A stretch of 64,000 nt of DNA from Eledone cirrhosa (Eukaryota), in the NCBI GenBank assembly GCA_964016885.1, contig OZ024741.1, forward strand, positions 210,304,001-210,368,000. Reading direction: 5' to 3'. A program made the translations under genes and the position numbers. The notes below the pieces were generated by a model. That model saw only the letters and a list, made by a program, of their open reading frames with translations, did no database searches and had not been told where the DNA came from. Shown in pieces: positions 3,456 through 63,841 of this stretch (positions are counted from its first letter, which is position 1; the number at the start of each line of letters is the position of its first letter).

Positions 3456-3496
<41 letters not shown>

Positions 3497-35165: not shown

Positions 35166-35373
35166 GGCGACCTACTTAGTAAATCGTATCATCGTGAGCT
35201 CCGCAAAGGTTTGTTATTTCCGTTTGTTAAAAATTGTCATTTATGGAAAATTTTATTGTTAACTGTTTATAAGCGCACATACATTGTTTTCCGAAAAGGA
35301 CACCCAAAAAGATTGGGGCCTTGTGCCCAAAATTTTAACTTTTATTATTATCCAAAAGTTTCTTTGAAAAAAA

Positions 35374-41052: not shown

Positions 41053-41104
<52 letters not shown>

Positions 41105-44100
41105 GAATGCTATGTTTGACGGAGGCTCGGCTCTGTAAGGTATTGTAAATTTTGAACGCTATAACAACTGTATACTGTTTAAAACTTTTACCAACTTGTA
41201 GACAAAAACACCCTCCTCCTCGTGAGAGGGGTCTTTCTGCCCGTTATTTGGCCCTTCGTGGTTAAATAACTGCTTATTGGGGTTTTGTACTCAATATTTA
41301 TTTTAAACACAAAAAAAACAACATGGCTACGAAAAATAAATTTCATAGGTCACTCCCACTCATTCCGTCTTCTTCTTCCTCAATCATCACTACAGCAGAG
41401 AGAAGATTGTCTCTCTCCCTCCCTTCTTTAAATGTGTCTCTTTCCCTCCCTTCTCTTTCGCAAGCGACGAAAGAAAAGAAAAGTCTCGTGCAAAGCGTGC
41501 AAGGGTTCTCCACGACGACGACGACAGCGACGAAACAGGTGTGCGGAAAATACGAAAACCCAGTTCATTCGTCTGACGTCAGGAATAATAGCAGTCGCAG
41601 CCGTAATAACAACAGCAACAGTGACAATGAAAACAACAGTAGCAGCCGAAACAGCATCACCAGCAGAATAAACAACAACAGCATTAGCAGCAGCAACACC
41701 AACAACAACCACAGCAACAGCGGCGGAGGCAGTAGTCGTAGTACCTGCAGCAACAACAAAAGTAACAGCAGCTCTGACGACAACAACAACAACAGCAGCA
41801 AAGAAAAACCAATCTCATTTGCAGGTATTGCGAAAAACTTGGAAACAATCCTCATAACAAATGAGGAATTAGAGGAAGCGAAGAAGATGGTGACAAAGAA
41901 TGGACACCGAGCAATCTGCAAGGCAGCGGAAAAATGTTTCGAAACCCAACAGCACTGTACGGTCACGTACCGCACAGTAAGTACAAAATCCCGTAGGGTG
42001 GAAAGAGCCACAGAGGCTCAAATACAAAAAGCCTTGGGGTCTGTGTGGCAGCGGAAAACGCACATCACCCGAGGCAAAAAATATGCCACCGTAGACGTAC
42101 TTTTTGCCACACCCCAGGAGGCAAAGGCCCAATCCGTAGTGACCCTAAGGAGCGAGGAAATGGTGTTGGTGCCCTCCTACTGCGGGCAAAAAATTGTGAG
42201 GGTCAAACTGACCCACGTCCCCCCCGGAATGGCCCCTTCTTGGCTGGCCGCGTCTGTCCTCGTCGGAATCGAGGACAAAACAACTGTACTGCAAGTACAG
42301 AAAAAAGTAAGAGAAGATTGGGTCGGCACCTCCATTGAGATGCTAATCCAAACCAACCAGGAGTGCATCGAAGCTATCCCGGATGTGATAGACTTCGATA
42401 ACGGCACTCAACTGCCCATAAGTGTTGAGGGCAAACGCCCGAAATGCTTTCGCTGTGGATCGAAGACTCACCTCAGGGCCTTCTGCAACGAGAAGACCCT
42501 GAGAAAGGAGAAAACCCCCTCCTTCCGAAACCGGCTCCACGGCTACCAGCAACAGGACAAGCGGCAACCAGAAACGATAGGTCCGTGGTACCCATACCCA
42601 CGCCACGGAAATTAAAAACAGCAGCAGCAGTGGAAATATTTACAACAACAACAGCAATACCAAATGCAGCTGCAACAGAGACTCCAGTGCAAACATCACC
42701 AACAACAAGTGAAAGAGTGGAGCTGGTACCCCTCCCCGACCTCATAGAATCAGACATGGAGTGTGAGGTGGGAGAGGGATGGCAAAAGGTCGTAAGAAGG
42801 CACAAACGCAGAAGCAGCGCATCGTCGCCTTTGCAAAGAGACCCACAGCAGCAACACCACCAACACCATCACCACCCACACTAGCACCACCATCACCACC
42901 GGCGACAACCACACCGCCAACAACACCTACAACACCACCACCACAAGCACCAACATCGCAAACACAACAACAAAACACACACACCCAGCAACAACAACAA
43001 GAAAATAGCAGAACCACACCACACCCCCAGAAAGACAAATGCACGGCAATAAATACACACAACAAGAAACTAATGACTTACATAATTGAACACACAGACA
43101 TTTCACAACACGACTACATAATACCAGCACCAATCAAAACGCCAACTAACATAAGACTGCTAAAAATAGCACAGAAACAATACACAAACATTAAAACGAA
43201 ATTCCCCAACGCAGTTGGTGATTTCAGGGACCTAGGAGGAACTATCAATCGAAGAGTATATTCAGACATTCTCTTAGAAGAGCCGCGGACCAGATTAAGG
43301 GACGATTCAACGGTCCCTTCACCAGACGATCAAGTGAAAAGGGATGTAAAAACCATCCCCCCTCTACGAAAAGTACGGTAAGTGGTCTTTCCCATCTTTT
43401 CCACTCTATTTTAAACATGACCCCACTCAGAATAGGCAGCATAAATGAGCGTGGCTTGGGGTCGTCATGGAAGCAGGGCCACCTGCTCAACGACCTCAGG
43501 TCACTAAACATAGATGTAGTGGCCATCAGCGAGACCAGAATCTCCGAAGCACGGTCCTTCGCACCGATCTTTGGCGGCTACGATGTGTACGCATCTCCCA
43601 GCCGTCCTGGATCGGGGGGAGGAGTTGCTGTGCTTTTTCGGAGAGGTTTGGATCTCGCCATACGGGCCATCTTCCTGGACCCAGAGGGTAAGCTGGTGGT
43701 ACTGGACGAGACCAGCGGAGACGGGCAAGCTTTCAGGCTAGTGGCCGTCTATGCCCCGACAGGAGCAGGGCGGTCTGATTTCTTCCGGCGTCTGGAGACC
43801 TTTCTTGGAACGTCCCGCTCTTTAGTGTTAGTGGGCGACTGGAACGGGATCTTAGATGCACGCTGGGACTGTGTGGGATTAGCGGATAGGGGTGGAGGGT
43901 GCAAGAGCCTCACCAAACTGCTCAGGCGTTTTGAAGTGTTACCGATTGGATTTCCCGAATGTGCCAATGTGGACTTGGACAAATCGTATAGGGTCATCCA
44001 GATCATATCTAGATAGAGTATTTTGTAGGGAAATAGATAGGTCTAGCATAGGCTGTCCACAATTCAAGATAGTCAGCTACACGGACCACAAATTCGTGAT

Positions 44101-47059: not shown

Positions 47060-47071
47060 ATTATTGTTATT

Positions 47072-49254
47072 GTTATTCCTTGAATCTCAGTCATTGATGT
47101 TGGTTAACTGGAAAGTCCGTTGGATTGAATATCAAGCCACTACCTGCAGCCTCAGATATTCAGGACGTATCGGAGGGTTCTTGCTGTTCCAAGCAAGCAT
47201 GCCTTTTGAAGCGTTCCAAAAAGCGTGAAGGGGCCGATTTTCTTTAACCATCCCTGGAAACTTTTGGAGATAGTCCCCAGTGCGCCTATGACAATCGGGA
47301 TCACTTTGACTTCATGGCAGTTCCAAATCCTTTTCACCTCCCACTTTAGGTCCTGGTATCGGTTAATTTTCTCCCTCTCCTTCTCTTGCACTCTCGTGTC
47401 GAACGGGCAGGCCACATCCACAATCAGGCACGATCTTTTTTCTTTGTCCACAACCACCAGGTCAGGTCTATTGTGTTCCAGTTTTTTGTCCGTCTGTATC
47501 CTAAAATCCCACAGCACCTTCACCTGATTGTTCTCCATCACCGCCTCTGGCCTATGCTCATACCATTTCTCAGAATGTGGTAGATTGTTTACTTTGCACA
47601 GGTGCCAGTGGATCACCCTGCCCATCACATCGTGTCTCCAGCCCTTATAGTGGGTCTGGGCTAGGTGTTTACACTCGGACACAATGTGAGCCACAGTCTC
47701 CTCTCTCTCTCCACAGATCCTGCACAGTGGGCTAGCCTCCTCCTTGTAGATATGGTGCTTCAACCACTTCGTTTTGAGGGCCTGCTCCTGCGCAGCCATT
47801 AGCATTCCTTCTGTAGCCTTTTTGAGGTCTCCTCTTCTCAACCAGTTCCATGTCTGTGGATCTCTAAATTCAGTTTTCTCAAAGAAGGTACTATGAAGCG
47901 ATTTTCCCTTAAGGCTGCTCTTTCTCCTTGATGTTATTTCCTCCCTGGACATCCCCTGGCCTACTGTCCCCTCCTTCAGTACAGTTCTGAGCATTGGCTC
48001 CTTACTATAGGTCACGTATTTGTATAGGTTGTTTTTCTCCATCTGAACACAGTCCTCTATGCTGATAAGACCTCTTCCACCCTCAGATCTCCTTAGGTAG
48101 AGTCTATCGACATCACTCCTCTTGTGGAACATGTTGTAGATAGTCAATAGCTTCCTAGTCTTCCTATCCATTTCTTTTTGTTCAGCAACATTCCATCTCA
48201 GAATTCCCGCAGTGTACCTAATAATAGACACAGCTCGGGAATTTACTGCGCTTATGGCGTTTCTGCTGTTCAGATGTGACTTCAATACGCTCCTTACTCT
48301 CCGAATGTATTCAGTTCTTAACAATTCCTTCATTTTTTTGTTCTTTATGCCATCAGCCTCCAGAACGCCCAAATACTTGTATCCTTCCTCCGAGTCAATT
48401 TCCTTTATCATCTCACCTGTTGGTATCTGGATCCCGTTACTTCTGCTCAACCTACCCCTCTTCATCACAATGACTCCACATTTACCAATACCAAACTGCA
48501 TACATATATCACTGCTGAATATACGGACAGTGTCAACAAGCACATCCAACTCCTTCTCACTTTTCCCGAAGAGCTTAAGATCGTCCACGAAGAGGAGGTA
48601 ATTGATGGTAAGCTCTCCCCTTCCCAACTTGTATCCTGCTCTCACTTTTCGCAGCATAATAGTCAAGGGCACCAGGGCAAGGACAAACAACAGAGGGGAC
48701 AGGCTATCTCCCTGGAAGATACCTCTCTTGATCTTCACGCTTCCCAAGGATACTCCAGTTGATGTCAACTCTGTCTCCCAGGACCCCATACTCCTGCCTA
48801 GCAACTGTCTGATGTTATCTGCCACCCTGAAGATCTCCAGGCTTTTGGTGATCCAGGAATGAGGCACCATGTCAAATGCCTTTCTGTAGTCTATCCATCC
48901 CATGGCAAGATCAGTGTGTCTCCTCCTGCAATTCCCCATTACCATCTTATCAATAAGCAACTGGTCCTTTGTACCACGTGACTTCTTTCGGCATCCTTTC
49001 TGTTCGTCCGGTAACAAGTTGTTTGTGTGGAGGTGATGGTAGATTTCCTCAGACACAATGCTCGTCAACAGTTTCCACATTACGGGCAGACATGTGATAG
49101 GTCTATAGTTGGTAGCATCATTACCCTTGATTCGGTCTTTCATTATCAGAACTGTGGTACCTTTTGTCAACCACTCTGGCACCTCACCCGACACCAAGCA
49201 GTCATTGAACATGGCCGTCAGCTTCGGGTGGAGGGATGTTAAATGTTTAATCCA

Positions 49255-49256
<2 letters not shown>
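47072..49256 (-). mobile_element. 5'-truncated R4/Dong-like RLE LINE family B, copy 1
   Basis: Open RT-CCHC-RLE frame near-identical to 54282-56466; truncated at tccaat|tatt, with microhomology to the (TAA)n tract. Confidence 0.92.
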
Positions 49257-49309
<53 letters not shown>

Positions 49310-49310
<1 letters not shown>

Positions 49311-52300
49311 TGTTGCATTTATCTTGCTTTGTGTTCATACGAGTTATCACCAAGTCACAACCAGTGACCTCAAGAGACAACAAGGTCCGCCATGTTCAAG
49401 AAAGAACATACATATTCACACATGCATCTTTAGTGTTTAGACTTGTGATGTACTTATATTGACAGAATCTTCCTTAGTATATGGGCAGTTCCCATTAGTA
49501 CTATCTTTTGTATTTCTCCTATACGCGGGTTTCCTGGGATTTGCGATTAGTAATCATTAGACCCCTTAGGTATCATTCCCAGAGCGCCTACAACCACTGG
49601 TATTGTTTTAGTTCTCAATTTCCACATTTTTCCAATTTCTATCTCCAGGTCCTTATACTTGCTCAATTTTTCAAATGTTTTTATAGATACATTCTTGTCT
49701 ATTGGAACAGACATATCAATTAGCAGGCATACCCTCTTTTGAAAGTCTTTCAATATTATATCAGGTCTGTTTGCATCTATTTTTCGGTCTGTTTGGATGC
49801 TAAAGTTCCACAAGATTGAGATGTGATCTCTTTCAAGTATGGGAGGTGGTTGATGCTCCCACCAATTCTTTTGATGGGGCAGGTCAAAATGCTTACACAT
49901 TATCCAATGTATGTATTGTGCAGTTCTGTCATGCCTGTTTAGGTATTCGGTTGGAGTTATAGGACTGCACATTGAAATTATATGGTCAATGGTCTCTGGT
50001 TGTTTTTTGCATACACGGAATAATGGGCTGCACCCATTTTTTATTATGTTGGCTTGGTAATTTTTTGTTGGCAGACACTGACCTTGTGCCGATATAATCA
50101 GTCCTTCAGTCTCCGATTTCAGTCCAGAGGATGCCAACCACTGATGGGTTAAAGTTTTGTCAACATCAGGATTGTTAGCTCGCTCTGGGTATTTTCCATA
50201 CAGAGGCTTTTCTTGCCATTTCTTAGCCAGTTTCTGTAGCAGTTCATTCTTTGCAGTTACTTTTACCTGCTTTGCTTTTTCTGTGTTTTCCATTTCAGCA
50301 GTAAATGGGACTTCTGAAATTTGTAGTCCATTACTGTATCTTTGTGCATCTTTTGTAATGGAATATGATCTTTTGATGCTTTCGTGTTTCAAAACGAGTT
50401 TGATCATCAAATCATGTGATTCCCTTAGATATGTAGATAATCCAATTGTTACAGTTTTCAACGCAATGTCTAACTGGATTAACCCACGTCCTCCTTCTTT
50501 CCTAGGGAGATATATTCTATCTATATCTGCCTTAGGGTGATGCATTCTGTGCATGGTTAAGAATTTTCGAATTTTTGTATCGAGCCTACGGATCTCTGTG
50601 CTTGACCAGTTGATGACATTGTAACTGTAGGTTACTACTGGTATGGCAAGCGTGTTTATAGCATCGATCCTATTCCTTGCATTCAATTCCGTTCCTAAGA
50701 TTGCTCTTACTCTGCGGTAACATTCCTTCCTTATCCTTTCCCTCATTGTCGAGTGCTTGATTCCGTCTCCTTCGCAAACACCTAGATATTTGTAAGTTTT
50801 TTCTTGATCAAGTTCACTTATCACGTTCCCCCGATCAAGATTAATGTCTGAACTCTTCAGCAGCTTTCCTCTGGTGAACGTTGCTTTGGCGCATTTATCT
50901 AGTCCAAACTCCACTTTAATGTCATCACTGAACTGCTTCACAGTGGATAATAGCCCTTGCAATTGTTCATCATTTTTTGCAAATAGTTTCAGGTCATCCA
51001 TGTAGAACAGGTGATTAATGGTTTTGTCATAGACTTTATATCCATGTTTTGTTTCATTGAGCATTTTACTTAATGGTATAAGTGCGATGCAGAATAAAAG
51101 CGGTGATAAAGAGTCACCCTGAAAAATTCCACAATTAATATTAACTTCTCCAGCTTCCAGTGATTTTGTTTCACTATTCAAAAGGAGTGTCGTTTTCCAT
51201 GTCTTCATACTGAATGACAAAAACCTCCTGACAACGGGGGATACTTTGAAAATCTCTAAACATTTTTCAATCCAACTGTGTGGCAAACTATCAAATGCTT
51301 TTTTATAATCTATCCAAGCAATCGATAGATTTTTGTGTCTATTATGACAATCTTCCAGTATCATTTTGTTAACCAGAAGCTGATCTTTACAGCCATATGA
51401 GCCTCGTTTACACCTTTTCTGCTCAATGGGAAATAGGTCATTTGTTATCAGGTGGTCATATGTGTATTCAGTTAGGACTGATGTTAAAATTTTATACATT
51501 GTGGTCAAGCAAGTTATCGTTCTGTAATTTTTGGGATTGTTTGTCTCATCATTCTTCGGAAGCAGGAATGTAATGCCGTTATCTAGCCATGAAGGTATCT
51601 TTTCTGGCTCCTTAACTATCTCATTGTAAAGTTGGGCTAACAGCTCATGAGACTCTGTGAAGGCATTTATCCAAACGTTTTGTATTTTGTCTTTTCCTGG
51701 GGATTTCCATTTGCTGGTTTTTCTTAGAGCCAAGCGCAACTGTTCAACTGTTATATTTTCCCATGTTTGTTCCTCAAGGTGAGCTGTATCTTTCATTTGT
51801 CTGTCTATCCATGGGGCATTATGTTATGAACTTTTTCTTCGGCCCATATCTTTTCCCAGAATTCTTGCACTTCGTCCTTGGGTGGTATTGATTTAGCAGT
51901 TACTGTTGACTTACCAATTTTTCTGTAGAAGTTTCTTTGATTGTTTTTGAACATATTATTGTCATTATAGAATCTAGATCGTTTTTCAAAGCGCCTTATA
52001 CGAGCAGCTTTGGCCGACACTTTTTGTTTGATTATTTCTATCAGCATGTCTATGTCACTTGTTGATTTTATACTGTACTTTTTTTTCAATTTTCTAAGTT
52101 TAGTTTGTTTAACATGTTCACCTACCTTATAGTTTGTTAAAATTTCTATGTCAGATCGGAGAAGGTTTATTTGGCGATTGATGTTCTCTCGCCAAGTAGA
52201 TTTCTTGTGGGAATTCCTTTGTTTTTTCATCTTCACTCCACATAAGTGAGTGGTGACTTTAGCCGATGCATAATAGAGATGATTTAAATCAGTAATGTTT

Positions 52301-54250
52301 AGTTTGTTTGTGATGATAATGTTTTTGAGAATTATGTTAGTCTTGTGTATTATCTTTTGGTTCTGTTTGGAGTTCTGGATCTTAGGGAGGGTGTCTCGTT
52401 GCCCCATGTCAGATTCTTTCATCTTCATCCATTCGATCATAATTTCATCCTTCAAGTTGGCAAGTTCATTCTCATTCATTTCTTTATCATATACGATCTC
52501 ATTATTTTCATTTGGAGTTTCATCCTGAGCATGCACTCCCTCCACTTTTTCAATCCTTTCTTTAATTTGTTCTGTTGCCAGTGATTCCGCCCCAACCCTG
52601 GGATTCGAAGTGTTACAATTTACCTCGTTTTCACTGACACATGTTTCATTTTCCCTTCGCTGACTTTGTGCTAATAGCTTGATCTGATCAATTTCTATAT
52701 CAGCTAGTAACTTTTTTCTTACAATATTTCTTCGTATATTGGCTAGTTTGTTGCTGTCAATATAGCCTCTGTTTTCGGGATGTTTCTTTTTCCAGTTGAT
52801 ATATGTCTGTTCTGTATTCGATGTATTTGATGGGTAGTACATGGCAGTGTAGAAAGCCTCAAAGACTTCTTTATTATCTTCCCTTGACCATTTTTCTCTC
52901 TTTTTCTTTGGATTTCTTTGTGGTGAGCATGGAGGGCCAACAGTAGGAGTATTCCGGTTATGGGAGGTCTCCAGCTCCGAAGTGATGGGAAGGTTTGAAC
53001 CATTAGCTGATTTTTCGACCCCAGTCTGGTTCCTCTCTGAGGGACGCAGCCCTTTTTTACCCGGGTGACGGCCGATCCGGTATGAGATTTTATTATTAGA
53101 CATTTACTTTATTTTGTCGCGTTTTATCCTTATCCGCTAAGGGGTAATCATTTCGTGTTACCACTTCTAGAACGAGTGTCAACCAAGACTAGAGGGTCGT
53201 TCTCCCCTAGAGACACGGCTATTCCCCGCCGGCCGCCATCCCTGTATTTCTTTGTCACGGGGTTTTCTTTTTGTTGTTTTTTTTTTAAATTGTTATTATC
53301 ATGAGTGGTTCCTTAATGTGAGCATTGCGTGGCTTAAGAATGAAATTATTAATAATTGACTCCACTCCAGGCACAAGGCCAGCAATCATCCAGTACATTA
53401 CAATAATATAATATACTGTTTGTTGTAGTTGGCTGTTATTGTTGTTGGCTATGTCGGTGGTGGTGCCGGGGCTTTTTATATTGTTGGTGAGGAAGGGGTG
53501 AGCCAGCAGTCGCATAGTTGTTGATGTTGACGTTCGGCCGTGGCTAGGTCACTAAGTCAATCTATTTATATCTTTTGCTAGCCTCTCCCTTGTCTAGTGA
53601 TACCGCCACCTTCCCCTTTCTCTCTCAAGTTATCAGGGAAATAGTGGTGGTAGCATTGGAGGAGTGGTGGTGGCGGGGAGATGTGGGAGACGGTAGCGGC
53701 GGTATCGATACTGAGACAGTGGTGGTGGTGATGTCGATACCGAGGCAGTGGTGGCGGTGATGTGATCGTATTACTGTAGTGATGGTGTTGTAGCGGTGGT
53801 AGCAATGAAGTAGTGGTGGCGGCGGTGATGGGATAGTGGTGGTAATGATGGCAGTAGTGAGTTGTGGTGGTGAAATTGCCGTTATCTGGCTGTTGTGTTT
53901 AGTGTACACAGAGAGGTGATGGGGTAGGTGTTGTATCTAGTTTCTGGTGTTGGTGAGATTGGTGTTGTTTGGCTGTTCTATATAGCGTAGACAGAGGAGG
54001 GGGGGGGTTCTTCTTCCATTTATAGCCATTTTCTTTTTTGAATATACAATGTACAATACAAAGTTGAATATTTGAATATGTGAGTCTTATAACAATATAT
54101 TTTGGGTTCGAATTCTTTGGGGCTCAAGCTGGATGCTTTACGTAGCATTTGTACTAAGAGTTGTTATTTCACAAATGATTTAAATATGTTAAAAATTCAA
54201 AACTTACGGGAGCGATTTCATGACCTTCCGCCACCTCGTGCGTCTTCTTC
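49310..54250 (-). mobile_element. Full-length R4/Dong-like RLE LINE family A with long 5' leader
   Basis: ORF from 53103 to about 49455, with frameshifts near 51820 and 49550. Motifs REKWSREDN, YMDDLK, RHD, RPDIIL..IDMSVP and GTAHILRKILSI; 3'UTR followed by (TAA)n. 53555-54250 is homologous to the family B leader. Confidence 0.88.
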
Positions 54251-54281
54251 CCTTATTATTATTATTATTATTATTGTTGTT

Positions 54282-57200
54282 GTTATTCCTTGAATCTCAG
54301 TCATTGATGTTGGTTAACTGGAAAGTCCGTTGGATTGAATATCAAGCCACTACCTGCAGCCTCAGATATTCAGGACGTATCGGAGGGTTCTTGCTGTTCC
54401 AAGCAAGCATGCCTTTTGAAGCGTTCCAAAAAGCGTGAAGGGGCCGATTTTCTTTAACCATCCCTGGAAACTTTTGGAGATAGTCCCCAGTGCGCCTATG
54501 ACAATCGGGATCACTTTGACTTCATGGCAGTTCCAAATCCTTTTCACCTCCCACTTTAGGTCCTGGTATCGGTTAATTTTCTCCCTCTCCTTCTCTTGCA
54601 CTCTCGTGTCGAACGGGCAGGCCACATCCACAATCAGACACGATCTTTTTTCTTTGTCCACAACCACCAGGTCAGGTCTATTGTGTTCCAGTTTTTTGTC
54701 CGTCTGTATCCTAAAATCCCACAGCACCTTCACCTGATTGTTCTCCATCACCGCCTCTGGCCTATGCTCATACCATTTCTCAGAATGTGGTAAATTGTTT
54801 ACTTTGCACAGGTGCCAGTGGATCACCCTGCCCATCACATCGTGTCTCCAGCCCTTATAGTGGGTCTGGGCTAGGTGTTTACACTCGGACACAATGTGAG
54901 CCACAGTCTCCTCTCTCTCTCCACAGATCCTGCACAGTGGGCTAGCCTCCTCCTTGTAGATATGGTGCTTCAACCACTTCGTTTTGAGGGCCTGCTCCTG
55001 CGCAGCCATTAGCATTCCTTCTGTAGCCTTTTTGAGGTCTCCTCTTCTCAACCAGTTCCATGTCTGTGGATCTCTAAATTCAGTTTTCTCAAAGAAGGTA
55101 CTATGAAGGGATTTTCCCTTAAGGCTGCTCTTCCTCCTTGATGTTATTTCCTCCTTGGTCATCCCCTGGCCTACTGTCCCCTCCTTCAGTACAGTTCTGA
55201 GCATTGGCTCCTTACTATAGGTCACGTATTTGTATAGGTTGTTTTTCTCCATCTGAACACAGTCCTCTATGCTGATAAGACCTCTTCCACCCTCAGATCT
55301 CCTTAGGTAGAGTCTATCGACATCACTCCTCTTGTGGAACATGTTGTAGATAGTCAATAGCTTCCTAGTGTTCCTATCCATTTCTTTTTGTTCAGCAACA
55401 TGCCATCTCAGAATTCCCGCACTGTACCTAATAATAGACACAGCTCGGGAATTTACTGCGCTTATGGCATTTCTGCTGTTCAGATGTGACTTCAATACGC
55501 TCCTTACTCTCCGAATGTATTCAGTTCTTAACAATTCCTTCATTTTTTTGTTCTTTATGCCATCAGCCTCCAGAACGCCCAAATACTTGTATCCTTCCTC
55601 AGAGTCAATTTCCTTTATCATCTCACCTGTTGGTATCTGGATCCCGTTACTTCTGCTCAACCTACCCCTCTTCATCACAATGACTCCACATTTACCAATA
55701 CCAAACTGCATATATATATCACTGCTGAAAATACGGACAGTGTCAACAAGCACATCCAACTCCTTCTCACTTTTCCCGAAGAGCTTAAGATCGTCCATGA
55801 AGAGGAGGTGATTGATGGTATGCTCTCCCCTTCCCAACTTGTATCCTGCTCTCACTTTTCGCAGCATAATGGTCAAGGGCATCAGGGCAAGGACAAACAA
55901 CAGAGGGGACAGGCTATCTCCCTGGAAGATACCTCTCTTGATCTTCACGCTTCCCAAGGATACTCCAGTTGATGTCAACTCTGTCTCCCAGGACCCCATA
56001 CTCCTGCCTAGCAACTGTCTGATGTTATCTGCCACCTTGAAGATCTCCAGGCTTTTGGTGATCCAGGAATGGGGCACCATGTCAAATGCCTTTCTGTAGT
56101 CTATCCATCCCATGGCAAGATCAGTGTGTCTCCTCCTGCAATTCCCCATTACCATCTTATCAATAAGTAACTGGTCCTTTGTACCACGTGACTTCTTTCG
56201 GCATCCTTTCTGTTCGTCCGGTAACAAGTTGTTTGTGTGGAGGTGATGGTAGATTTCCTCAGACACAATGCTCGTCAACAGTTTCCACATTACGGACAGA
56301 CATGTAATAGGTCTATAGTTGGTAACATCATTACCCTTGATTCGGTCTTTCATTATGAGAACTGTGGTACCTTTTGTCAACCACTCTGGCACCTCACCCG
56401 ACACCAAGCAGTCATTGAACATGGCCGTCAGCTTCGGGTGGAGGGATGTTAAATGTTTAATCCAATACCCCTGCACACCATCTGGGCCTGGTGATTTCCA
56501 GTTGGTTAGTTTTTTGGCCTGCCCCTTAAGAGTTTCAACTGTGATACTCAACTCAGTTTGTTGTTGTGCCTGCTCACCGATCTCCCTCTGTACTGTCTCA
56601 ATCCACCCTGCCTGGGCATTGTGTCTAACATCCTGCTCCCATATTCCTCTCCAGAATGTTTTAGTTTGCTCCGCCCCAGGCATCAAGTCGTTGCCTCTTT
56701 CTTTGCCCTCAAGCTGTCCAAACAGCATCTTCTGGTTGTTGTCGAACATGCGGTTCTGTTTATACTGACTGACTCTGTTCTCGTATCGCCTGATTTTTGC
56801 ACTCTTTGCTACAATGCGTTGCTTCAATTCCTCTATGATAATATTTAGCTTTTTACTCCTAGTTTTGTATTTTATTTCCAGTCTATTTTTAGTGCCTATG
56901 TTTTTTAGTGTCCCATTCAGTAGTGACTCAAGCTTTCCTATGTCATTTCTCATTTCCCCGATTTGCCCACTCAGTCGCTTCTTCCACCACGGCTCTGCTC
57001 TTTCTTGTCTGTTGTTTCCTCTCGCTTTTATACCAAGTAGTTTCCTCACCGTATTTGCTGTTGCTTTGAGGATATTGTTGCACTGGTGAAGGCTCCTCGC
57101 CTCAAGGTATGGGATGACTTTGTTTACCTTAGCTGTTGTTTCTTTTAACTTTTTCCTGTCTACAAATCTTAGGTTCATAGGTCTCCCACTATCATTGTTC

Positions 57201-58733
57201 AATTCATCTACCACTAAATTTAGGATGTCAACCGAATCTTGTCCTAGCCCGTCAGCATTCATCTCCTCAGTGGCCGTATCTCTGTTCCAGGTATTATTTA
57301 TCTCAGTATTCAGATCATTGTCTGCTTCGGGTGGTTCCTCCGTTCTCAGGACCTCTTCACCTTCATTTCCCACTGGCTCGCTTGTCTTGCATACTACACC
57401 CGCCATCTCCAAGCCATTCTCTCTGCTCAGTTCCTCCAGTTCCAGCTCGCTTATCCATCCATTAGTTCTTATTACCCGAGCCTGCCCGGCCAATTTTTGT
57501 TCATCTAATTTAAATAAACCAATCTCGTTCCAGATGTTATGCATCCGTCTCCTGTAGCCCCTCTCCTTGGGGTTACTTTTCAGGTAACATTGCATAACAG
57601 TTCTATTCAATTCTTTCGTCCAGTTGGTTCTGGCCCCTTTCCTTCTTCTCCTTCCTCCAACATCAGCAGTATTTGGTTGACAGTCAGGTTCCTGCTGCTG
57701 AGCCAGCGGGCACCTGTTGGGTGAGAGTCTGTCACATGACGTTCTAGACTCCATTTCACCGTTATTCGAACTGTTTATGTTCGATATTTAAACACTCTTA
57801 TCGAGGATTGGCGAATGTATGGTTACATATCCATCTGTGGATCCGCCATTCCACTTGGCCCTTGTGTGGCATTATCACCACGCTGTATACGAACACACAT
57901 AAACAAACAAACACACGGGCAGAAAGGGCCCCAAAAATGAATAAGCATAAGTTTCATTGTAATGTAGTGTTCGAATGTCTGACTTAGTTTTTGTTTTTTA
58001 AGTTTTAGTTTTTCCCCCCTCTTCTCTGTCCGTCCGCCTGCTTCTCTCTTCATTCTTATTTTCTTTACGTTTTGGGGGTTTCTTTTTTTGTTTTTGTTTT
58101 TCTCTGTTTGTTTTTCTCGTTTTTGCTGTTGTTGCTGTGCTGCTTTGGTTTTGTTGTTTGTTTTTTCTTTTTTCTTTTGAGTCTATCTATATATTTTGAT
58201 GCCTTCCTCTTTGTTAGTAGTAGGAATTCTATAATGTGGAAGTAGCAGCCAGCAGGGAGAAGTGGGAGACTGGCGGCGGTAGCGATACTGAGACAGTGGT
58301 GGTGGTGATGTCGATAGCGAGGCAGTGGTGGCGGAGATGTGACCGTATTACTGTAGTGATGGTGCTGTAGCGGTGGCAGCAGTGAAGGAGTGAAGGGGTG
58401 GTGGCGGCGATGATGGGATAATGGTGGTAATGATGGCCGTAGTGAGCGGTTGAAAATGCCGTTATCTGGCTGTTGTGTTTAGTGTACACAGATGATGGGG
58501 TGGGTGGTGTATCTAGTTTCTGGTGTTGGTGAGTTTGGCTGTCCTATATAGTGTAGACAGAGGAGAGGAGGGGGGGGGGTTCTTCTTCCATTTATAGCCA
58601 TTTTCTTTTTTGGATATACAGTGTACAATACAAAGTTGAATATTTGAATATTTGAGCCTTATAACAATATATTTTGGGTCTGAATTTTTTGGGGGCTCAA
58701 GCCGGGTGCGTTACGTAGCATTTGTACTAAGAG

Positions 58734-58738
<5 letters not shown>
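54282..58738 (-). mobile_element. Near full-length R4/Dong-like RLE LINE family B, copy 2
   Basis: Single ORF and a ~1-kb leader lacking the outermost ~80 nt seen in copy 3; (TAA)n on both sides. Confidence 0.93.
54362..57754 (-). CDS. Uninterrupted 1130-aa RT plus CCHC plus restriction-like endonuclease protein
   Basis: RTNWTKELN N-terminus, KSPGPDG, IDYRKAFD, QGDSLSP, FMDDLK, CRICGEREETVAHIVSEC, RHD, RPDLVVVD..IVDVACP..EKINRY. Confidence 0.93.
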   Translation of the reverse strand: MESRTSCDRLSPNRCPLAQQQEPDCQPNTADVGGRRRRKGARTNWTKELNRTVMQCYLKSNPKERGYRRRMHNIWNEIGLFKLDEQKLAGQARVIRTNGWISELELEELSRENGLEMAGVVCKTSEPVGNEGEEVLRTEEPPEADNDLNTEINNTWNRDTATEEMNADGLGQDSVDILNLVVDELNNDSGRPMNLRFVDRKKLKETTAKVNKVIPYLEARSLHQCNNILKATANTVRKLLGIKARGNNRQERAEPWWKKRLSGQIGEMRNDIGKLESLLNGTLKNIGTKNRLEIKYKTRSKKLNIIIEELKQRIVAKSAKIRRYENRVSQYKQNRMFDNNQKMLFGQLEGKERGNDLMPGAEQTKTFWRGIWEQDVRHNAQAGWIETVQREIGEQAQQQTELSITVETLKGQAKKLTNWKSPGPDGVQGYWIKHLTSLHPKLTAMFNDCLVSGEVPEWLTKGTTVLIMKDRIKGNDVTNYRPITCLSVMWKLLTSIVSEEIYHHLHTNNLLPDEQKGCRKKSRGTKDQLLIDKMVMGNCRRRHTDLAMGWIDYRKAFDMVPHSWITKSLEIFKVADNIRQLLGRSMGSWETELTSTGVSLGSVKIKRGIFQGDSLSPLLFVLALMPLTIMLRKVRAGYKLGRGEHTINHLLFMDDLKLFGKSEKELDVLVDTVRIFSSDIYMQFGIGKCGVIVMKRGRLSRSNGIQIPTGEMIKEIDSEEGYKYLGVLEADGIKNKKMKELLRTEYIRRVRSVLKSHLNSRNAISAVNSRAVSIIRYSAGILRWHVAEQKEMDRNTRKLLTIYNMFHKRSDVDRLYLRRSEGGRGLISIEDCVQMEKNNLYKYVTYSKEPMLRTVLKEGTVGQGMTKEEITSRRKSSLKGKSLHSTFFEKTEFRDPQTWNWLRRGDLKKATEGMLMAAQEQALKTKWLKHHIYKEEASPLCRICGEREETVAHIVSECKHLAQTHYKGWRHDVMGRVIHWHLCKVNNLPHSEKWYEHRPEAVMENNQVKVLWDFRIQTDKKLEHNRPDLVVVDKEKRSCLIVDVACPFDTRVQEKEREKINRYQDLKWEVKRIWNCHEVKVIPIVIGALGTISKSFQGWLKKIGPFTLFGTLQKACLLGTARTLRYVLNI

Positions 58739-58800
<62 letters not shown>

Positions 58801-58995
58801 TGATTCTTGTTAAATAATCTTCAGCACGTAGTTATCACTATCACTATAATCACCATTATCTTAACACCATTGTCATTTTCATTTCTTCACATCAATAACA
58901 TCATCATCTTCATTGTTATTTTTTTGTCCATAGCCATTTTCATTGTTGTCGTCATTAGAACCATCATCATTATCACCATTATCACCAGCATCGTC

Positions 58996-59047
<52 letters not shown>

Positions 59048-59048
59048 G

Positions 59049-62000
59049 TTATTCCTTGAATCTCAGTCATTGATGTTAGTTAACTGGAAAGTCCGTTGGA
59101 ATGAATATCAAGCCACTACCTGCAGCCTCAGATATTCAGGACGTATCGGAGGGTTCTTGCTGTTCCCAGCAAGCATGCCTTTTGAAGCGTTCCAAAAAGC
59201 GTGAAGGGGCCGATTTTCTTTAACCATCCCTGGAAACTTTTGGAGATAGTCCCCAGTGCGCCTATGACAATCGGGATCACTTTGACTTCATAGCAGTTCC
59301 AAATCCTTTTTACCTCCCACTTTAAGTCCTGGTATCGGTTAATATTCTCCCTCTCCTTCTCTTGCACTCTCGTGCCGAATGGGCAGGCCACATCCACAAT
59401 CAGACACGATCTTTTTTCTTTGTCCACAACCATCAGGTCAGGTCTATTGTGTTCCCGTTTCTTGTCCGTCTATATCCTAAAAGCCCACAGCACCTTCACC
59501 TGATCGTTCTCCATCACCGCCTCTGGCTTATGCTCATACCATTTCTCAGAATGTGGTAAATTGTTTACTTTGCACAGGTGCCAATGGATCACCCTGCCCA
59601 TCACATCATGTCTCCAGCCCTTATAGTGTGTCTGGGCTAGGTGTTTACACTCGGATACAATGTGTGCCACAGTCTCCTCTCTCTCTCTCCACAGATCCTG
59701 CACAGTAGGCTAGCCTCCTCCTTGTAAATATGGTGCTTCAACCACTTCGTTTTAAGGGCCTGCTCCTGCGCAGCCATTAACATTCCTTTTGTAGCCTTTT
59801 TAAGGTCTCCTCTTCTCAGCCAGTTCCATGTCTGTGGATCTCTAAATTCAGTTTTCTCAAAGAAGGTACTATGAAGGAATTTTTCCTGAAGGCTGCTCTT
59901 TCTGCTTGATGTTATTTCCTCCTTGGACATCCCCTGGCCTATTGTCCCCTCCTTCAGTACAGTTCTGAGCATTGGCTCCTTACTATCAGTCACGTATTTG
60001 TGTAGGTTGTTTTTCTCCATCTAAACACAGTCCTCTATGCTGATAAGACCTCTTCCACCCTCAGATCTCCTTAGGTAGAGTCTATCGACATCACTCCTCT
60101 TGTGGAACATGTTGTAGATAGTCAATAGCTTCCTAGTCTTCCTATCCATCTCTTTTTGTTCAGCAACATTCCATCTCAGAATTCCCGCACTGTACCTAAT
60201 AATAGACACAGCTCGGGAATTTACTGCGCTTGTGGCATTTCTGCTGTTCAGATGTGACTTCAATACGCTCCTTACTCTCCGAATGTATTCAGTTCTTAAC
60301 AATTCCTTCATTTTTTTGTTCTTTATGCCATCAGCCTCCAGAACGCCCAAATACTTGTATCCTTCCTCAGAGTCAATTTCCTTTATCATCTCTCCTGTTG
60401 GTATCTGGATTCCGTTACTTCTGCTCAACCTACCCCTCCTCATCATAATGACTCCACACTTACTAATACCAAACTGCATACATATATCACTGCTGAAAAT
60501 ACGGACAGTGTCAACAAGCACATCCAACTCCTTCTCACTCTTCCCGAAGAGCTTAAGATCGTCCATGAAGAGGAGGTGATTGATGGTAAGCCCTCCCTTT
60601 CCCAACCCGTATCCTGCTCTCACTTTTCGCAGTACACTGGTCAGGGGCATCAGGGCAAGGACAAACAACAGAGGGGACAGGCTATCTCCCTGGAAGATAC
60701 CTCTCTTGATCTTCACGCTTCCCAAGGATTCTCCAGTTGATGTCAATTCTGTTTCCCAGGACCTCATACTCTTGCCCAACAACTGTCTGATGTTATCTGC
60801 CACCTTGAAGATCTCCAGGCTTTTGGTGATCAAAGAATGAGGCACCATGTAAATGCCTTTCTGTAGTCTATCCATCCCATGGCAAGATCAGTCTGTCTCC
60901 TCCTGCAATTCCCCATTACCATCTTATCAATAAGTAACTGGTCCTTTGTACCACGTGACTTCTTTCGGCATCCTTTCTGTTCGTCCGGTAACAAGTTGTT
61001 TGTGTGGAGGTGATGGTAGATTTCCTCAGACACAATGTTCGTCAACAGTTTCCACATTACGGACAGACATGTGATAGGTCTATATTTGGTAACATCATTA
61101 CTCTTGATTCGGTCTTTCATTATCAGAACTGTGGTACCTTTTGTCAACCACTCTGGTACCTCACCTGACATCAAGCAGTCATTGAACATGGTTGTCAGTT
61201 TCGGGTGGAGGGATGTTATATTTTTAATCCAATACCCCTGCACACCATCTGGGCCTGGTGATTTCCAGTTGGTTAGTTTTTTGGCCTGCCCCTTAAGAGT
61301 TTCAACTGTGATACTCAAATCAGTTTGTTGGTGTGCCTGCTCACCGATCTCCCTCTGTACTGTCTCAATCCACCCTGCCTGGTCATTATGTCTAACATCC
61401 TGCTCCCATATTCCTCTCCAGAATGTTTTAGTTTGTTCCGCCTCAGGGATCAAGTCGTTGCCTCTTTCTTTCCCCTCAAGCTGTCCAAACAGCATCTTCT
61501 GGTTGTTGTCGAACATGCGGGTCTGTTTATACTGACTGACTCTGTTCTCGTATCTCCTGATTTTTGCACTCTTTGCTACAATGCGTTGCTTCAATTCCTC
61601 TATGATAATATTTAGCTTTTTCCTCCTAGTTTTGTACTTTATTTCCAGTCTATTTTTAGTGCCTATGTTTTTTAGTGTCCCATTCAGTAGTGACTCAAGC
61701 TTTCCAATGTCATTTCTCATTTCCCTGATTTGTCCACTCAGTCGTTTCTTCCACCAAGGCTCTGCTCTTTCTTGTCTGTTGTTTCCTCTCGCTTTTATAC
61801 CAAGTAGTTTCCTCACCGTATTTGCTGTGGTTTTGAGGATATTGTTGCACTGGTGAAGGCTCCTCGCCTCAAGGTATGGGATGACTTTGTTTACCTTAGC
61901 TGTTGTTTCTTCTAACTTTTTCCTGTCTACAAATCTTAGGTTCATAGGTCTCCCATTATCATTGTTCAATTCATCTACCACTAAATTGAGGATGTCAACC

Positions 62001-63760
62001 GAATCTTGTCCTAGCCCGTCAGCATTCATCTCCTCAGTGGCCGTATCTCTGTTCCAGGTATTATTTATCTCAGTATTCAGATCATTGTCTGCTTCGGGTG
62101 GTTCCTCCGTTCTCTCGACCTCTTCACCTTCATTTCCCACTGGCTCGTTTGCCTGGCATACTCCACCCTCCATCTCCAAGCTAATCTCTCTGCTCAGTTC
62201 CTCCATTTCCAGCTCGCTTATCCACCCATTAGTTCTTATTACCCGAGCCTGCCCGGCCAATTTTTGTTCATCTAATTCAAATAGACCAATATCGTTCCAG
62301 ATGTTATGCATCCGTCTCCTATAGCCCCTCTCCTTGGGGTTACTTTTCAGGTAACATTGCATAACAGTTCTATTCAATTCTTTCGTCCAGTTGGTTCTGG
62401 TCCCTTTCCTTCTTCTTCTTCCTCCGACACCAGCAGTATTTGGTTGACAGCCAGGTTCCTGCTGCTGAGCCAGGGAGCACCTGTTGGGTGAGACCCTGTC
62501 ACATGACGTTCTAGTCTCCATTTCACCGTTATTCGAACTGTTTAGGTTCGATATTTAAACACTCTTATCGAGGATTGGCGAATGTATGGTTACATAACCA
62601 TCTGTGGATTCACCATCTCCGGTGGTTGCGTCGCTCCACTTGGCTCTTGTGTGGCATTATCACCACGCTGTAGACGAACACAAATAAACAAACAAACAAA
62701 CAGGCAGAAAAAACCCCCCAAAATGAATAAGCATAAGTTTCATTGTAATGTAGTGTTCGAATGTCTGACTTAGTTTTTCCCTTCTCTTCTCTGTCCGTCC
62801 GCTTGTTTCTCTCTTCATTCTTATTTTCTTTACGTTTTTTTGTTTTTTTGTTTTTCTCTGTTTGTTTGTTTTTTTTTGTTTTTTTTTGTTGTTGTTGCTG
62901 TGCTGCTTGGGTTTTGATTTTTGTTTTTTCTCTTTTGAGTCTATCTATATATTTTGATGCCTTCCTCTTTTTTAGTAGGAATTCTATAATGTGGTGGCAG
63001 TGCTGTGCTAGCAGCAACTAGCAGGAGGCAATGGGAGAGAATAGCGGCGGTAGCGATACTGAGACAGTGGTGGTGGTGATGTCGATACTGAGGCAGTGGT
63101 GGTGGTGATGTGATCGTATTACTGTAGTGATGGTGTTGTAGCGGTGGTAGCAATGAAGGAGTGGTGGTGGCGGTGATGGGATAGTGGTAGTAATGGTGGA
63201 TGGGCGGCGTTGTCGTTACTGATGTCCGTTCGGTGAATCTATGGGGTTAGTCGCGTACATGTGTTGACATAAATTCCCTTAATGTTGGAATTAAACATTT
63301 TGTTAAAACTTGGGACAATAATAATAGTATTTATTATTATCATTATTATGTTGAGATTGGTTGTGGTGGTGGTGGTGAAGTTGCCGTTATCTGGCTGTTG
63401 TGTTTAGTGTACACAGAGAGGTGATGGGGTAGGTGGTGTATCTAGTTTCTGGTGTTGGTGAGATTGGTGTTGTTTGGCTGTTCTATATAGTGTAGACAGA
63501 GGAGGGGGGGGGGGTTCTTCTTCTTCCATTTATAGCCATTTTCTTTTTTGAATATACAATGTACAATACAAAGTTGAATATTTGAATATTTGAGCCTTAT
63601 AACAATATATTTTGGGTCCGAATTTTTTTTGGGCTCAAGCCGGATGCTTTACGTAACATTTGTACTAAGAGTTGTTATTTCACAAATGATTTAAATATGT
63701 TAAAAATTCAAAACTTACGGGAGCGATTTCATGACCTTCTACCACCTCGTGCGTCTTCTT
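59049..63760 (-). mobile_element. Full-length family B copy 3, disrupted
   Basis: ORF 62521-59128 has stops and frameshifts. Complete leader with an extra ~170-bp insert at about 63195-63360. Confidence 0.92.
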
Positions 63761-63778
63761 TATTATTATTCTTTATTA

Positions 63779-63806: not shown

Positions 63807-63841
63807 TTATTATTATTATTATTATTATTATTATTGTTATT

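What the first reader, a model, noticed from the sequence alone, without database searches (positions are those of the whole stretch)
53410..54250. RLE families A and B share a 5' leader that looks like a captured Tx1 5'UTR plus ORF1 start
Seen: the proteins of families A and B are clearly divergent, yet the same leader sits upstream of A (53555-54250), B2 (58180-58738) and B3 (62935-63760). Its layout mirrors the Tx1 5' ends: about 220 nt, then an A-rich run and ATGGCT (54029, 58601, 63539 on -), versus 208 and 218 nt before ATGGCT in Tx1 (35374, 41323). The motif gctcccgtaagttttgaatttttaac..ataacaact resembles gctctgtaaggtattgtaaattttgaac..ataacaact (41130) and gctccgcaaaggtttg (35198) at similar offsets. 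Decayed CA-rich (Thr/Pro/His-coding) sequence follows, like the Tx1 ORF1 N-termini. Inference: an internal promoter module moved between APE and RLE clades that share a target site.
Basis: partly seen in the sequence, partly recalled or inferred. Interest (0 to 1): 0.75.

Follow-up and report, generated by a model that had tools for sequence, protein, structure and literature searches.

The report
Shared swappable leader of two LINEs
Two distantly related jumping-gene families that both insert into TAA repeats carry nearly the same 5' leader, which has moved between them at least twice and is likely their internal promoter; the proposed origin from a neighbouring Tx1 element is not supported.

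Summary
The family A copy in the window (49310-54252, minus strand) shares its first ~580 nt with B2 (87% identity) and B3 (94-95%). Nothing else in the elements aligns as DNA. The proteins are 25-43% identical and third codon positions are 32% identical.

The sharing is genome-wide. 30 of 30 best leader hits continue into an A body, and 26 of 30 copies found with an A-specific probe carry a leader.

A bodies carry three leader forms:
- an older A-own form, 73-89% identical to B leaders beyond the first 108 nt;
- a composite with a B3-like leader fused onto the rest of the A-own leader;
- the window's form, which is that composite with a ~215-nt deletion.

The AU test rejects a single origin of A-borne leaders (p 1e-12). 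The first 108 nt are 92-99% identical in all forms. Full-length copies of both families start at the same nucleotide. 17 of 60 sampled copies carry tandem ~325-nt leader units. These features suggest an exchangeable promoter and 5'UTR module, but that function is inferred, not shown.

The Tx1 resemblance reduces to an A-run plus ATGGCTA at a similar offset. Profile searches give E of 1.6 or worse. None of 100 sampled leaders heads a Tx1 element, and Tx1 elements insert in the opposite orientation.

The parts
49310..54252 (-). Family A copy 'A2': an RLE-type non-LTR retrotransposon, full length at its 5' end. Its ORF is split into two frames (49547-51823 and 51805-53103).
   Evidence: (RVT_1 E 4.5e-28). 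The 3' end lies next to the (ATT)n tract at 49255-49309.
54145..54252 (-). 5' core of the leader (first 108 nt, starting GGGAAGAAGACG). It is nearly invariant in all leader forms of A and B and is the likely core promoter or 5'-end recognition part (inferred).
   Evidence: 92-99% identity in all pairs, against 73-77% in the next 130 nt for A-own versus B forms. Fisher p 3e-4 to 6e-4. Same first nucleotide after (TAA)n.
53674..54252 (-). B3-like leader module carried by A2 (579 nt).
   Evidence: 95.2% and 94.0% to B3; 86.9% to B2. The alignment shows its lower end is a deletion junction relative to the type II composite.
53590..53673 (-). Remnant of family A's older own leader. This tail is also shared at about 79% with a divergent B subfamily.
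   Evidence: L192 604-699 matches A2 574-663 at 79.2%.
53937..54029 (-). Short upstream ORF (MAINGRR..., 30 codons in this copy) opening at the A-run plus ATGGCT. Its length and frame differ between copies because of a variable C-run.
54253..54287 (.). (TAA)n target tract between the 3' end of B2 and the 5' end of A2, in a head-to-tail array.
54288..58741 (-). Family B copy 'B2', with an open 1141-codon frame (54362-57787). Its 5' end is truncated by 84 nt, so its leader starts at ATAACAACT. The shared leader spans 58252-58741.
   Evidence: PDB sequence search: best hits are R2 proteins at E 3e-31.
62992..63762 (-). Leader of family B copy 'B3'. It includes an AT-rich ~170-nt segment (about 63200-63365) that B2 and A2 lack but A's older leader has.
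35166..35373 (+). 5'UTR of Tx1-type element 1 (APE + RT), 208 nt before ATGGCT. Not significantly similar to the leader.
41104..41322 (+). 5'UTR of Tx1-type element 2, 219 nt before ATGGCT. Only weak, collinear, non-significant matches to the leader.

Best explanation
The 580-700-nt leader is a shared 5' module of two (TAA)n-specific, R2-like (restriction-like-endonuclease) LINE families, and it has been exchanged between them at least twice; it is likely their internal promoter plus 5'UTR. Shown: A and B share only this module. A bodies carry two leader lineages, and B bodies occur in both lineages too. The window's A copy descends from a composite in which a B3-like leader replaced the first ~415 nt of A's older leader, after which ~215 nt were deleted. 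Inferred: the first 108 nt, which are nearly invariant and start at one fixed nucleotide, are the core that drives or marks transcription. Also inferred: the exchange happens by recombination or reverse-transcriptase template switching between elements or their RNAs, helped by their lying head to tail in the same TAA arrays. The Tx1 elements next door are not the source as far as the sequence can tell.
For: 1. Mosaic structure. The leader is 87-95% identical between A2 and B. No other DNA similarity is found at E<=1e-5. The proteins are 25-43% identical, and third codon positions are 31.6% identical over 709 codons.

2. Genome-wide.
- 30 of 30 loci from the 40 scored leader hits (3762 candidates) run on into an A body.
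- With a B-specific probe, 26 of 30 loci carry the leader and 4 are truncated at its end.
- With an A-specific probe, 26 of 30 loci carry a leader and 4 are truncated at A2 positions 578-620. The 26 comprise 8 of type I (the window's form), 7 of type II and 11 of type III.

3. Composite anatomy. Type II is a B3-like leader, running through B-specific sequence, followed by the type III leader from its AT-rich segment onward. Type I is type II minus ~215 nt. This gives the direction B to A for the recent event.

4. Older layer. The type III leader is about 80% identical over ~700 nt to the leader of a divergent B subfamily. That is about as close as the B3 leader is to that subfamily's leader (79%).

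5. Leader tree (61 rows). A starred clade holds 19 B and 3 A rows. The AU test rejects all A-borne leaders forming one clade (p 1.1e-12, delta lnL 161). In the sample of the type III core word, 33 of 40 copies have A bodies, 6 have B-like bodies and 1 is unclassified.

6. Function leads.
- The first 108 nt are 92-99% identical in all forms, against 73-77% just downstream (Fisher p about 3e-4).
- The exact 19-nt start GGGAAGAAGACGCACGAGG directly after the repeat is found in 24 of 30 A loci, 14 of 30 B loci and 47 of 60 sampled copies.
- 17 of 60 sampled copies have 2-3 tandem ~325-nt leader units.
- There is no excess RNA structure (z +0.6 and +2.1) and no Rfam match.

7. Co-residence. The window holds a head-to-tail run B4-B3-B2-A2-B1, and many loci show the same arrangement.
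Against: - No transcription data. No RNA run was listed for this sequence, so promoter activity and the transcription start are inferred only.
- The genome searches score only the best 40 candidates. The two less biased samples are the first 60 and first 40 listed exact word matches, all on contig C1, and bodies were typed from about 1.4 kb downstream.
- The A group for the AU test was named after a first tree had been seen. Rows are decayed copies, not master elements.
- DNA-level gene conversion between neighbours cannot be told apart from RNA-level template switching.
- The direction of the older exchange is unknown. Strong constraint on a vertically inherited leader cannot be strictly excluded for the first 108 nt alone.
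- A weak collinear likeness to the Tx1-2 5'UTR exists (leader profile positions 40-84 against Tx1-2 26-70, and 192-233 against 182-229; E 1.6-5). A reversed database gave no hits at E<=100.
Confidence: 0.75

Rival explanations
1. One reading: the leader is a captured Tx1 (APE clade) 5'UTR plus the start of ORF1, now decayed, that moved into the RLE families.
For: - The architecture is similar: 208-223 nt, then an A-run and ATGGCTA.
- With one permissive scoring scheme and the start context included, Smith-Waterman scores exceed shuffles (z 3.2-4.2).
- There are weak collinear nhmmer matches to Tx1-2 at matching offsets (E 1.6-5).
- The Tx1 pair in the window is itself a 5'-module mosaic, so module exchange does occur at this target.
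Against: - Without the start context, p is 0.03-0.57 and reversed controls score as high.
- Profile bit scores are about 0.
- The five-way alignment has 32 scattered invariant columns, and the only contiguous block is the A-run plus ATGGCT.
- The two Tx1 5'UTRs are not similar to each other.
- The older A-own leader has ATGGTT.
- No conserved frame follows the ATG.
- 0 of 100 sampled leaders head a Tx1 body.
- 40 of 40 Tx1 copies are preceded by (ATT)n on their sense strand, whereas the RLE elements are preceded by (TAA)n. The two kinds therefore lie in opposite orientations.
Confidence: 0.08
2. Vertical inheritance: the leader descends from the common ancestor of A and B and is kept similar by strong selection, with no exchange.
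For: The first 108 nt are nearly invariant in every form, which shows that selection can hold part of the leader constant.
Against: - Coding third positions are saturated (31.6% identity), while 580-700 nt of non-coding leader, including low-complexity CA-rich and AT-rich parts, are 80-97% identical.
- A bodies carry two leader lineages, and a composite of both exists.
- The AU test rejects one clade of A-borne leaders.
Confidence: 0.03
3. The leader's conserved role is at the RNA level rather than as a promoter. It could be a 5' processing ribozyme, as in R2 and L1Tc, or an RNA bound by the element's protein during integration.
For: - Full-length copies have a precise common 5' end.
- The elements lie in head-to-tail arrays where read-through transcripts would need processing.
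- HDV-like ribozymes are reported at the 5' ends of R2 and L1Tc (abstracts of PMC3774820 and PMC3185411, seen in the listings).
Against: - No Rfam family matches at E<=1 in 30000-64000.
- The first 110 nt and 238 nt fold no better than shuffles (z +0.61 and +2.07).
- Proteins only 25-43% identical would have to recognise the same RNA.
- Tandem multiplication of a ~325-nt unit fits promoter units better; the parallel with mouse L1 monomers is recalled, not tested.
Confidence: 0.12
4. The leader is, or began as, a separate short TAA-targeting element or 5' fragment that merely sits upstream of A and B bodies and is co-mobilised by read-through.
For: - In B3, type III and divergent B leaders, the first ~415 nt are followed by a TAA/ATT-like tract and an AT-rich segment. 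This looks like a relic of two units joined at a target repeat.
- 5'-truncated A copies start exactly in that segment (L181).
Against: - In the current copies the leader is contiguous with the bodies, with fixed junctions across many loci.
- No separate leader-only family was seen among 100 sampled leaders.
- The one mini-element found (5' core plus B 3' tail, L143) is single-copy.
Confidence: 0.07

Closest known systems
Pr77 hallmark of trypanosomatid L1Tc/ingi-clade retroelements
   Same: A short conserved sequence at the extreme 5' end is shared by several different retroelement families and acts as an internal promoter. (Abstracts of PMC1874656, PMC3383444 and PMC8190864, seen in the listing.) Here a 108-nt nearly invariant 5' core is shared by two families.
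   Different: Pr77 elements belong to one APE clade and include non-autonomous derivatives. Pr77 also encodes an HDV-like ribozyme, for which no sign was found here. Here the shared part is far longer (580-700 nt), the carriers are RLE elements with 25-43% identical proteins, and promoter activity is untested.
Mammalian L1 5'UTR turnover and mouse L1 monomer promoters
   Same: LINE lineages replace their 5'UTR or promoter module while keeping the coding body. Mosaic lineages arise by recombination between subfamilies, and promoters can be tandem monomers. Here 17 of 60 copies have 2-3 tandem ~325-nt leader units, and a composite leader exists.
   Different: In L1 the exchange is between subfamilies of one family, or is recruitment of non-L1 sequence. 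Here the same module sits on two families whose coding DNA no longer aligns, both restricted to one microsatellite target.
Dong / R4-type (TAA)n-specific non-LTR retrotransposons
   Same: They share the (TAA)n target; Dong elements are listed as TAA-specific in a passage of PMC3812793. A and B have a single ORF with RT, a C-terminal Cys/His motif and a PD...D-type nuclease region, and R2 proteins are the best solved relatives. Target-specific RLE clades are described in passages of PMC4640811.
   Different: Clade membership (R4 versus other RLE clades) was not tested by phylogeny here. I found no report of a leader shared between Dong-like families in my searches.
Tx1-clade target-specific elements (Kibi, Koshi, Keno)
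   Same: The plus-strand neighbours have APE plus RT, a separate ORF1, precise 5' ends and strict insertion into a repeat (40 of 40).
   Different: The microsatellite targets listed for Tx1-clade elements in the passage read are TC and TTC (PMC3812793). Here the target is the TTA strand of the TAA repeat. Their 5'UTRs are not significantly similar to the RLE leader.

Membership tests
RLE-bearing non-LTR retrotransposons (R2 group) | Reverse transcriptase domain | tested here: met
   Pfam RVT_1: B2 E 1.2e-23, A2 E 4.5e-28. The best solved relatives are R2 proteins at E 3e-31, against L1 ORF2p at E 1e-13.
RLE-bearing non-LTR retrotransposons (R2 group) | C-terminal Cys/His motif followed by a PD-(D/E)xK-type nuclease, and no APE domain | tested here: met
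   No Exo_endo_phos hit in A or B, whereas the Tx1 ORF2 has one. The A/B alignment shows CRICGEREETVAHIVSEC and NRPDLVVVD...LIVDV in B. The motif definition is recalled, and no profile for the RLE domain was run.
R4 / Dong clade | Insertion into (TAA)n | tested here: met
   5' ends abut (TAA)n in the listed flanks, and 3' ends run into TAA repeats.
R4 / Dong clade | Placement inside the R4 clade in an RT phylogeny with reference elements | not tested
   No named reference sequences were available.
   Only the A-run plus ATGGCTA carries signal.
   0 of 100 sampled leader copies. First 60: 2 A, 56 B, 2 interrupted. Next 40: 33 A, 6 B-like, 1 unclassified. The sample covers contig C1 only.
Shared 5' promoter hallmark (Pr77-like) | A conserved extreme 5' sequence shared by distinct element families | tested here: met
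   The first 108 nt are 92-99% identical across all A and B leader forms, with a common first nucleotide.
Shared 5' promoter hallmark (Pr77-like) | Promoter activity of that sequence | not testable with these tools
   Needs CAGE, 5'RACE or reporter assays.
Shared 5' promoter hallmark (Pr77-like) | HDV-like ribozyme in the same nucleotides | tested here: not met
   No Rfam hit at E<=1. Fold z-scores are +0.61 and +2.07. A dedicated HDV-descriptor search was not run.
Monomer-type LINE 5'UTR (mouse L1-like) | Tandem repeats of a 5'UTR unit upstream of the ORF | tested here: met
   17 of 60 sampled copies, all B2-type, have 2 units (16 copies) or 3 units (1 copy) spaced 320-342 nt apart. One further copy has a 712-nt duplication. 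The window's own copies have one unit.

The most novel reading that the evidence does not exclude
The leader is a circulating promoter cassette, a shared resource that competing site-specific LINE families in one microsatellite niche repeatedly take from each other. Its invariant 108-nt core is tuned to one host transcription or integration factor. The faint collinear likeness to the Tx1-2 5'UTR would then be the trace of a still older passage across the APE/RLE divide.
Probability: 0.12. Interest if true: 0.75.

Novelty: new variant of a known kind. Interest (0 to 1): 0.5.

Why it matters
Replacement of the 5' end is thought to be how LINEs escape host repression of their promoters, but it is mostly documented within one family (mammalian L1). 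Here two RLE families with saturated coding divergence share one leader, and it has been swapped at least twice. A datable composite intermediate survives, along with hundreds of young copies of each form. This gives a natural system for three questions: which part of a LINE 5' end is needed in cis, how recombinant LINEs arise when elements pile up head to tail at one target, and whether families that compete for a target also share regulation.

Tried and rejected
- Rfam scan of 30000-64000 at E<=1 found no ribozyme or other relevant family.
- RNA folds of the first 110 and 238 nt show no excess structure.
- Expression evidence: no RNA holder was listed for 53100-54330.
- A possible SINE-like derivative (92-nt 5' core joined to about 40 nt of the B 3' tail, locus L143) has a junction that occurs once in the genome, so it is a one-off.
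- A conserved ORF in the leader is rejected. Frames are open only because the region is CA-rich, they lack ATGs and they differ between copies.
- Earlier-findings look-ups by place, sequence and words returned nothing.
- The homologue search gave 1043 unnamed relatives at E<=0.001 and no help with clade naming.
- Literature searches for a shared leader between non-LTR families found nothing directly comparable. Subscription papers are not covered.
- A DPE-like word (GGTCA at +28 to +32 from the first G) fits a recalled consensus, but I give it no weight.
Full report
SETTING

The window is G000:C2:210304001-210368000 of a 3.0-Gb animal genome. From 31 kb to 64 kb it is a pile of target-specific non-LTR retrotransposons, each separated from the next by (ATT)n/(TAA)n tracts.

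On the minus strand lie RLE-type elements:
- A1: 31.6-35.1 kb, 5'-truncated.
- B1: 47036-49255, 5'-truncated.
- A2: 49310-54252.
- B2: about 54288-58741.
- B3: about 59019-63762.
- The 3' end of a further B copy, from 63806.

On the plus strand lie two Tx1-type elements, at 35166-41056 and 41104-47060.

Pfam finds RVT_1 in A and B, and Exo_endo_phos plus RVT_1 in the Tx1 ORF2. The B ORF is open for 1141 codons, and its best solved relatives are R2 proteins (E 3e-31; L1 ORF2p E 1e-13). The A/B protein alignment shows a Cys/His motif and a PD...D nuclease-like region at the C-terminus. "RLE family" is therefore a fair label. Assignment to the R4/Dong clade was not tested.

THE OBSERVATION

The shared leader is real.
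- blastn of 53300-54330 against the window matches 58252-58741 (86.9%) and 63032-63199 / 63366-63890 (94.0% / 86.7% with a gap).
- Element against element, A2 and B3 align only at A2 4-392 (95.2%) and 402-569 (94.0%). A2 and B2 align only at A2 85-580 (86.9%). No other HSP reaches E<=1e-5.
- The proteins are 40% identical over 761 residues (RT to C-terminus) and 25% over 407 residues (N-terminal part).
- Over 709 aligned codons, nucleotide identity is 50.9% and third-position identity is 31.6%.

A and B are thus old families that share a young 5' end.

IS IT A ONE-OFF?

No.
- The 696-nt A2 leader has 3762 first-look candidates in the genome. 40 were scored, all at E of 1e-8 or lower, and 38 of them cover most of the query at 93-100%. 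All 30 loci returned continue into the A body.
- A B-specific 5'UTR probe (1688 candidates, 40 scored) gave 30 loci. 23 reach the first base of the B2 reference (B2 itself lacks the first 84 nt). 3 more hold part of the leader. 4 are truncated at its end.
- A 38-nt word of the core occurs 959 times exactly, and 0 times when read backwards.
- Of the first 60 places listed (all on contig C1), 2 have A bodies, 56 have B bodies (49 B2-like, 6 B3-like, and one B copy with a long internal duplication), and 2 are interrupted after about 100 nt. None heads a Tx1 element.

THREE LEADER FORMS ON A BODIES

An A-specific probe (53110-53540; 2227 candidates, 40 scored) returned 30 loci.
- Type I, 8 loci (one 5'-truncated): the window's form.
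- Type II, 7 loci (three truncated): the same first 580 nt, then about 215 extra nt before the A-specific part.
- Type III, 11 loci (one truncated): a different leader, only 76-82% identical to A2 positions 1-390.
- 4 loci are truncated at A2 positions 578-620.

The alignment of representatives explains these forms. Type III is an A-own leader, collinear with the B3 leader. It has about 415 nt with the core and the uORF, then an AT-rich ~170-nt segment that B3 has and B2 lacks, then a CA-rich part, then A-specific sequence. Type II is a B3-like leader that runs on through B-specific sequence and is then joined to type III from its AT-rich segment onward. The CA-rich part therefore occurs twice. 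Type I, the window's A2, is type II with an internal deletion whose junction lies at A2 position about 579 (window 53674). So a B-type leader was put onto an A element that already had a leader of its own. This fixes the direction of the recent event as B to A.

AN OLDER LAYER OF SHARING

The type III variant of the 38-nt word occurs 319 times exactly. Of the first 40 places, 33 have A bodies, 6 have B-like bodies and 1 is unclassified.

Four of the six B-like copies belong to a divergent B subfamily whose 5'UTR tail is 80-84% identical to B3. Their leader is about 80% identical to type III over ~700 nt and about 79% identical to B3 over ~640 nt. It also contains the stretch I had taken to be A-specific (A2 574-663, 79%). 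In leader space, A's own leader is therefore no further from B leaders than B leaders are from each other, while the coding DNA of A and B is saturated. The older sharing is thus most simply an earlier transfer too. That step assumes roughly clock-like change and is inferred.

LEADER TREE

The tree used the first 400 nt of the leader in 61 rows: 36 on A bodies and 25 on B bodies. B2-like rows were thinned at random from 49 to 12, and 4 unclassified rows were left out. A bodies fall in both main leader clades. One branch with 100% SH-aLRT support encloses 19 B and 3 A rows. The AU test rejects holding all A rows together (delta lnL 160.9, p 1.1e-12). The group was defined after a first FastTree had been seen, so the p-value is descriptive.

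WHAT THE LEADER LIKELY DOES

Several features bear on function.
- The first 108 nt are 92-99% identical in every pair of forms. The next 130 nt are 73-77% identical between type III and the others (Fisher p 3e-4 to 6e-4 for single pairs).
- Full-length copies of both families begin at the same nucleotide directly after the repeat. The exact 19-nt start is present in 24 of 30 A-leader loci, 14 of 30 B-probe loci and 47 of 60 sampled copies.
- In the type III sample only 8 of 40 copies have the exact word, because many read CACGTGG. The listing still shows most of them starting at GGGAAGAAGA.
- 17 of 60 sampled copies, all B2-like, carry two or three tandem units of 320-342 nt that include the uORF start.
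- The RNA is not unusually structured (z +0.61 for 110 nt, +2.07 for 238 nt), and Rfam finds nothing.
- The ATG opens only an 18-40 codon uORF, whose frame depends on a C-run of variable length.

Elements that land in microsatellites cannot rely on a host promoter. I therefore read the leader as an internal promoter plus 5'UTR, with the 108-nt core as the essential part. This is inference, and no RNA data could be had.

The closest described parallel is the Pr77 hallmark shared by trypanosomatid retroelements (abstracts in the listing). The tandem units recall mouse L1 monomers (recalled, not read here).

HOW THE EXCHANGE MAY HAPPEN (INFERRED)

A and B lie head to tail in the same arrays in the window and in many loci. 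Three routes are open: read-through transcripts, template switching of the reverse transcriptase between A and B RNAs, and DNA-level recombination between neighbours. The type II junction lies in a short repeated AT-rich word, which fits a homology-guided switch but does not say at which level it occurred.

In B3, type III and the divergent B leaders, a TAA/ATT-like tract follows the first ~415 nt. This hints that the leader itself was once assembled from two units joined at a target repeat.

THE TX1 CLAIM

- blastn gives no hit at E<=1e-3.
- An nhmmer profile of 30 leader copies against the window gives no Tx1 hit at E<=10. The Tx1-2 profile touches the three leaders only at the A-run plus ATG, at E 2.2-3.4.
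- A profile of diverse leader forms against 40 Tx1 5' ends (17,045 nt, one strand) gives a best E of 1.6 at about 0 bits. The weak hits are collinear with Tx1-2, and a reversed database gives none at E<=100.
- Smith-Waterman against 1000 dinucleotide shuffles gives z 3.2-4.2 with the +5/-4 scoring scheme when the start context is included, but p 0.05-0.18 with +2/-3.
- With the last 14 nt before the ATG and everything after it removed, p is 0.03-0.57 over three scoring schemes. Block shuffles give p 0.05-0.72, and reversed sequences score 91-113 against the observed 100-119.
- The five-way alignment has 32 invariant columns. The only contiguous block is the A-run plus ATGGCT.

Further points count against a Tx1 origin. 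The two Tx1 5'UTRs do not resemble each other. Type III leaders read ATGGTT. All 40 Tx1 copies examined are preceded by (ATT)n on their own strand, while the RLE elements are preceded by (TAA)n. The two kinds therefore sit in opposite orientations, and where they meet they lie head to head (for example L181). I put the Tx1 origin at about 8%.

VERDICT

The observation of a shared leader is confirmed and is stronger than stated. The module-exchange idea is supported for the two RLE families. The Tx1 origin is not supported.

The phenomenon is a new variant of a known kind, namely LINE 5'-end turnover and shared 5' hallmarks. It is notable for recurrent exchange between families with saturated coding divergence, and for a surviving composite intermediate.

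Noticed in passing
window 35166-41056 and 41104-47060 (+): The two Tx1-type elements are themselves a mosaic. From about 2.15-2.23 kb to the 3' end they are 96.4% identical in one HSP. The first ~2.2 kb (5'UTR plus ORF1) do not align as DNA, and the ORF1 proteins are 54% identical over 196 residues. A 5' module has been swapped here too.
   Followed up: partly
loci L101, L107, L112, L117, L122, L124, L128, L130, L132-L134, L138, L145, L149, L150, L156, L158: A B2-like subfamily carries two tandem copies (three in L145) of a ~325-nt leader unit that includes the uORF start. L110 has a 712-nt duplication. This resembles monomer-type LINE promoters.
   Followed up: partly
window 35107-35165, 41055-41103; loci L061-L100: The Tx1-type elements insert strictly into the repeat with (ATT)n on their sense strand (40 of 40) and have precise 5' ends. 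The microsatellite targets listed for Tx1-clade elements in the review passage I read are TC and TTC, so a TTA/TAA target may be an unlisted specificity.
   Followed up: partly
loci L002, L007, L009, L024, L029, L193, L194, L198, L202, L206, L229: Many copies have a (GAA)n tract between the (TAA)n target and the element's 5' end, which itself begins GGGAAGAAGA. In some copies the tract replaces the first 10-25 nt. It looks like slippage or repeat growth seeded by the 5' end.
   Followed up: no
locus L143 (G000:C1:95273214-95274814): A mini-element made of the first 92 nt of the leader joined to about 40 nt of the B 3' tail, flanked by TAA repeats. Its junction occurs once in the genome.
   Followed up: yes
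window 58806-59000 (-): About 190 nt of G/A/T-rich sequence of unknown origin lies between two TAA tracts, separating B3's 3' end from B2's 5' end.
   Followed up: no
window 63200-63365 (-) and type III / divergent B leaders: The AT-rich ~170-nt segment inside the leader begins with a TAA/ATT-like tract. It is present in B3, type III and divergent B leaders but absent from B2-like and type I leaders. It may be a relic of how the leader was first assembled.
   Followed up: partly
window 15612-15773 and 16671-16816: CA-rich stretches elsewhere in the window give weak blastn matches (68-70%) to the leader's CA-rich part. This is probably low-complexity likeness only.
   Followed up: no
window 31500-33470 (-): A1 aligns to A2 only over its first 1633 nt (A2 2122-3755, 95.8%). 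The rest of the stretch taken for A1 did not align, so A1 is rearranged or the stretch holds something else.
   Followed up: no
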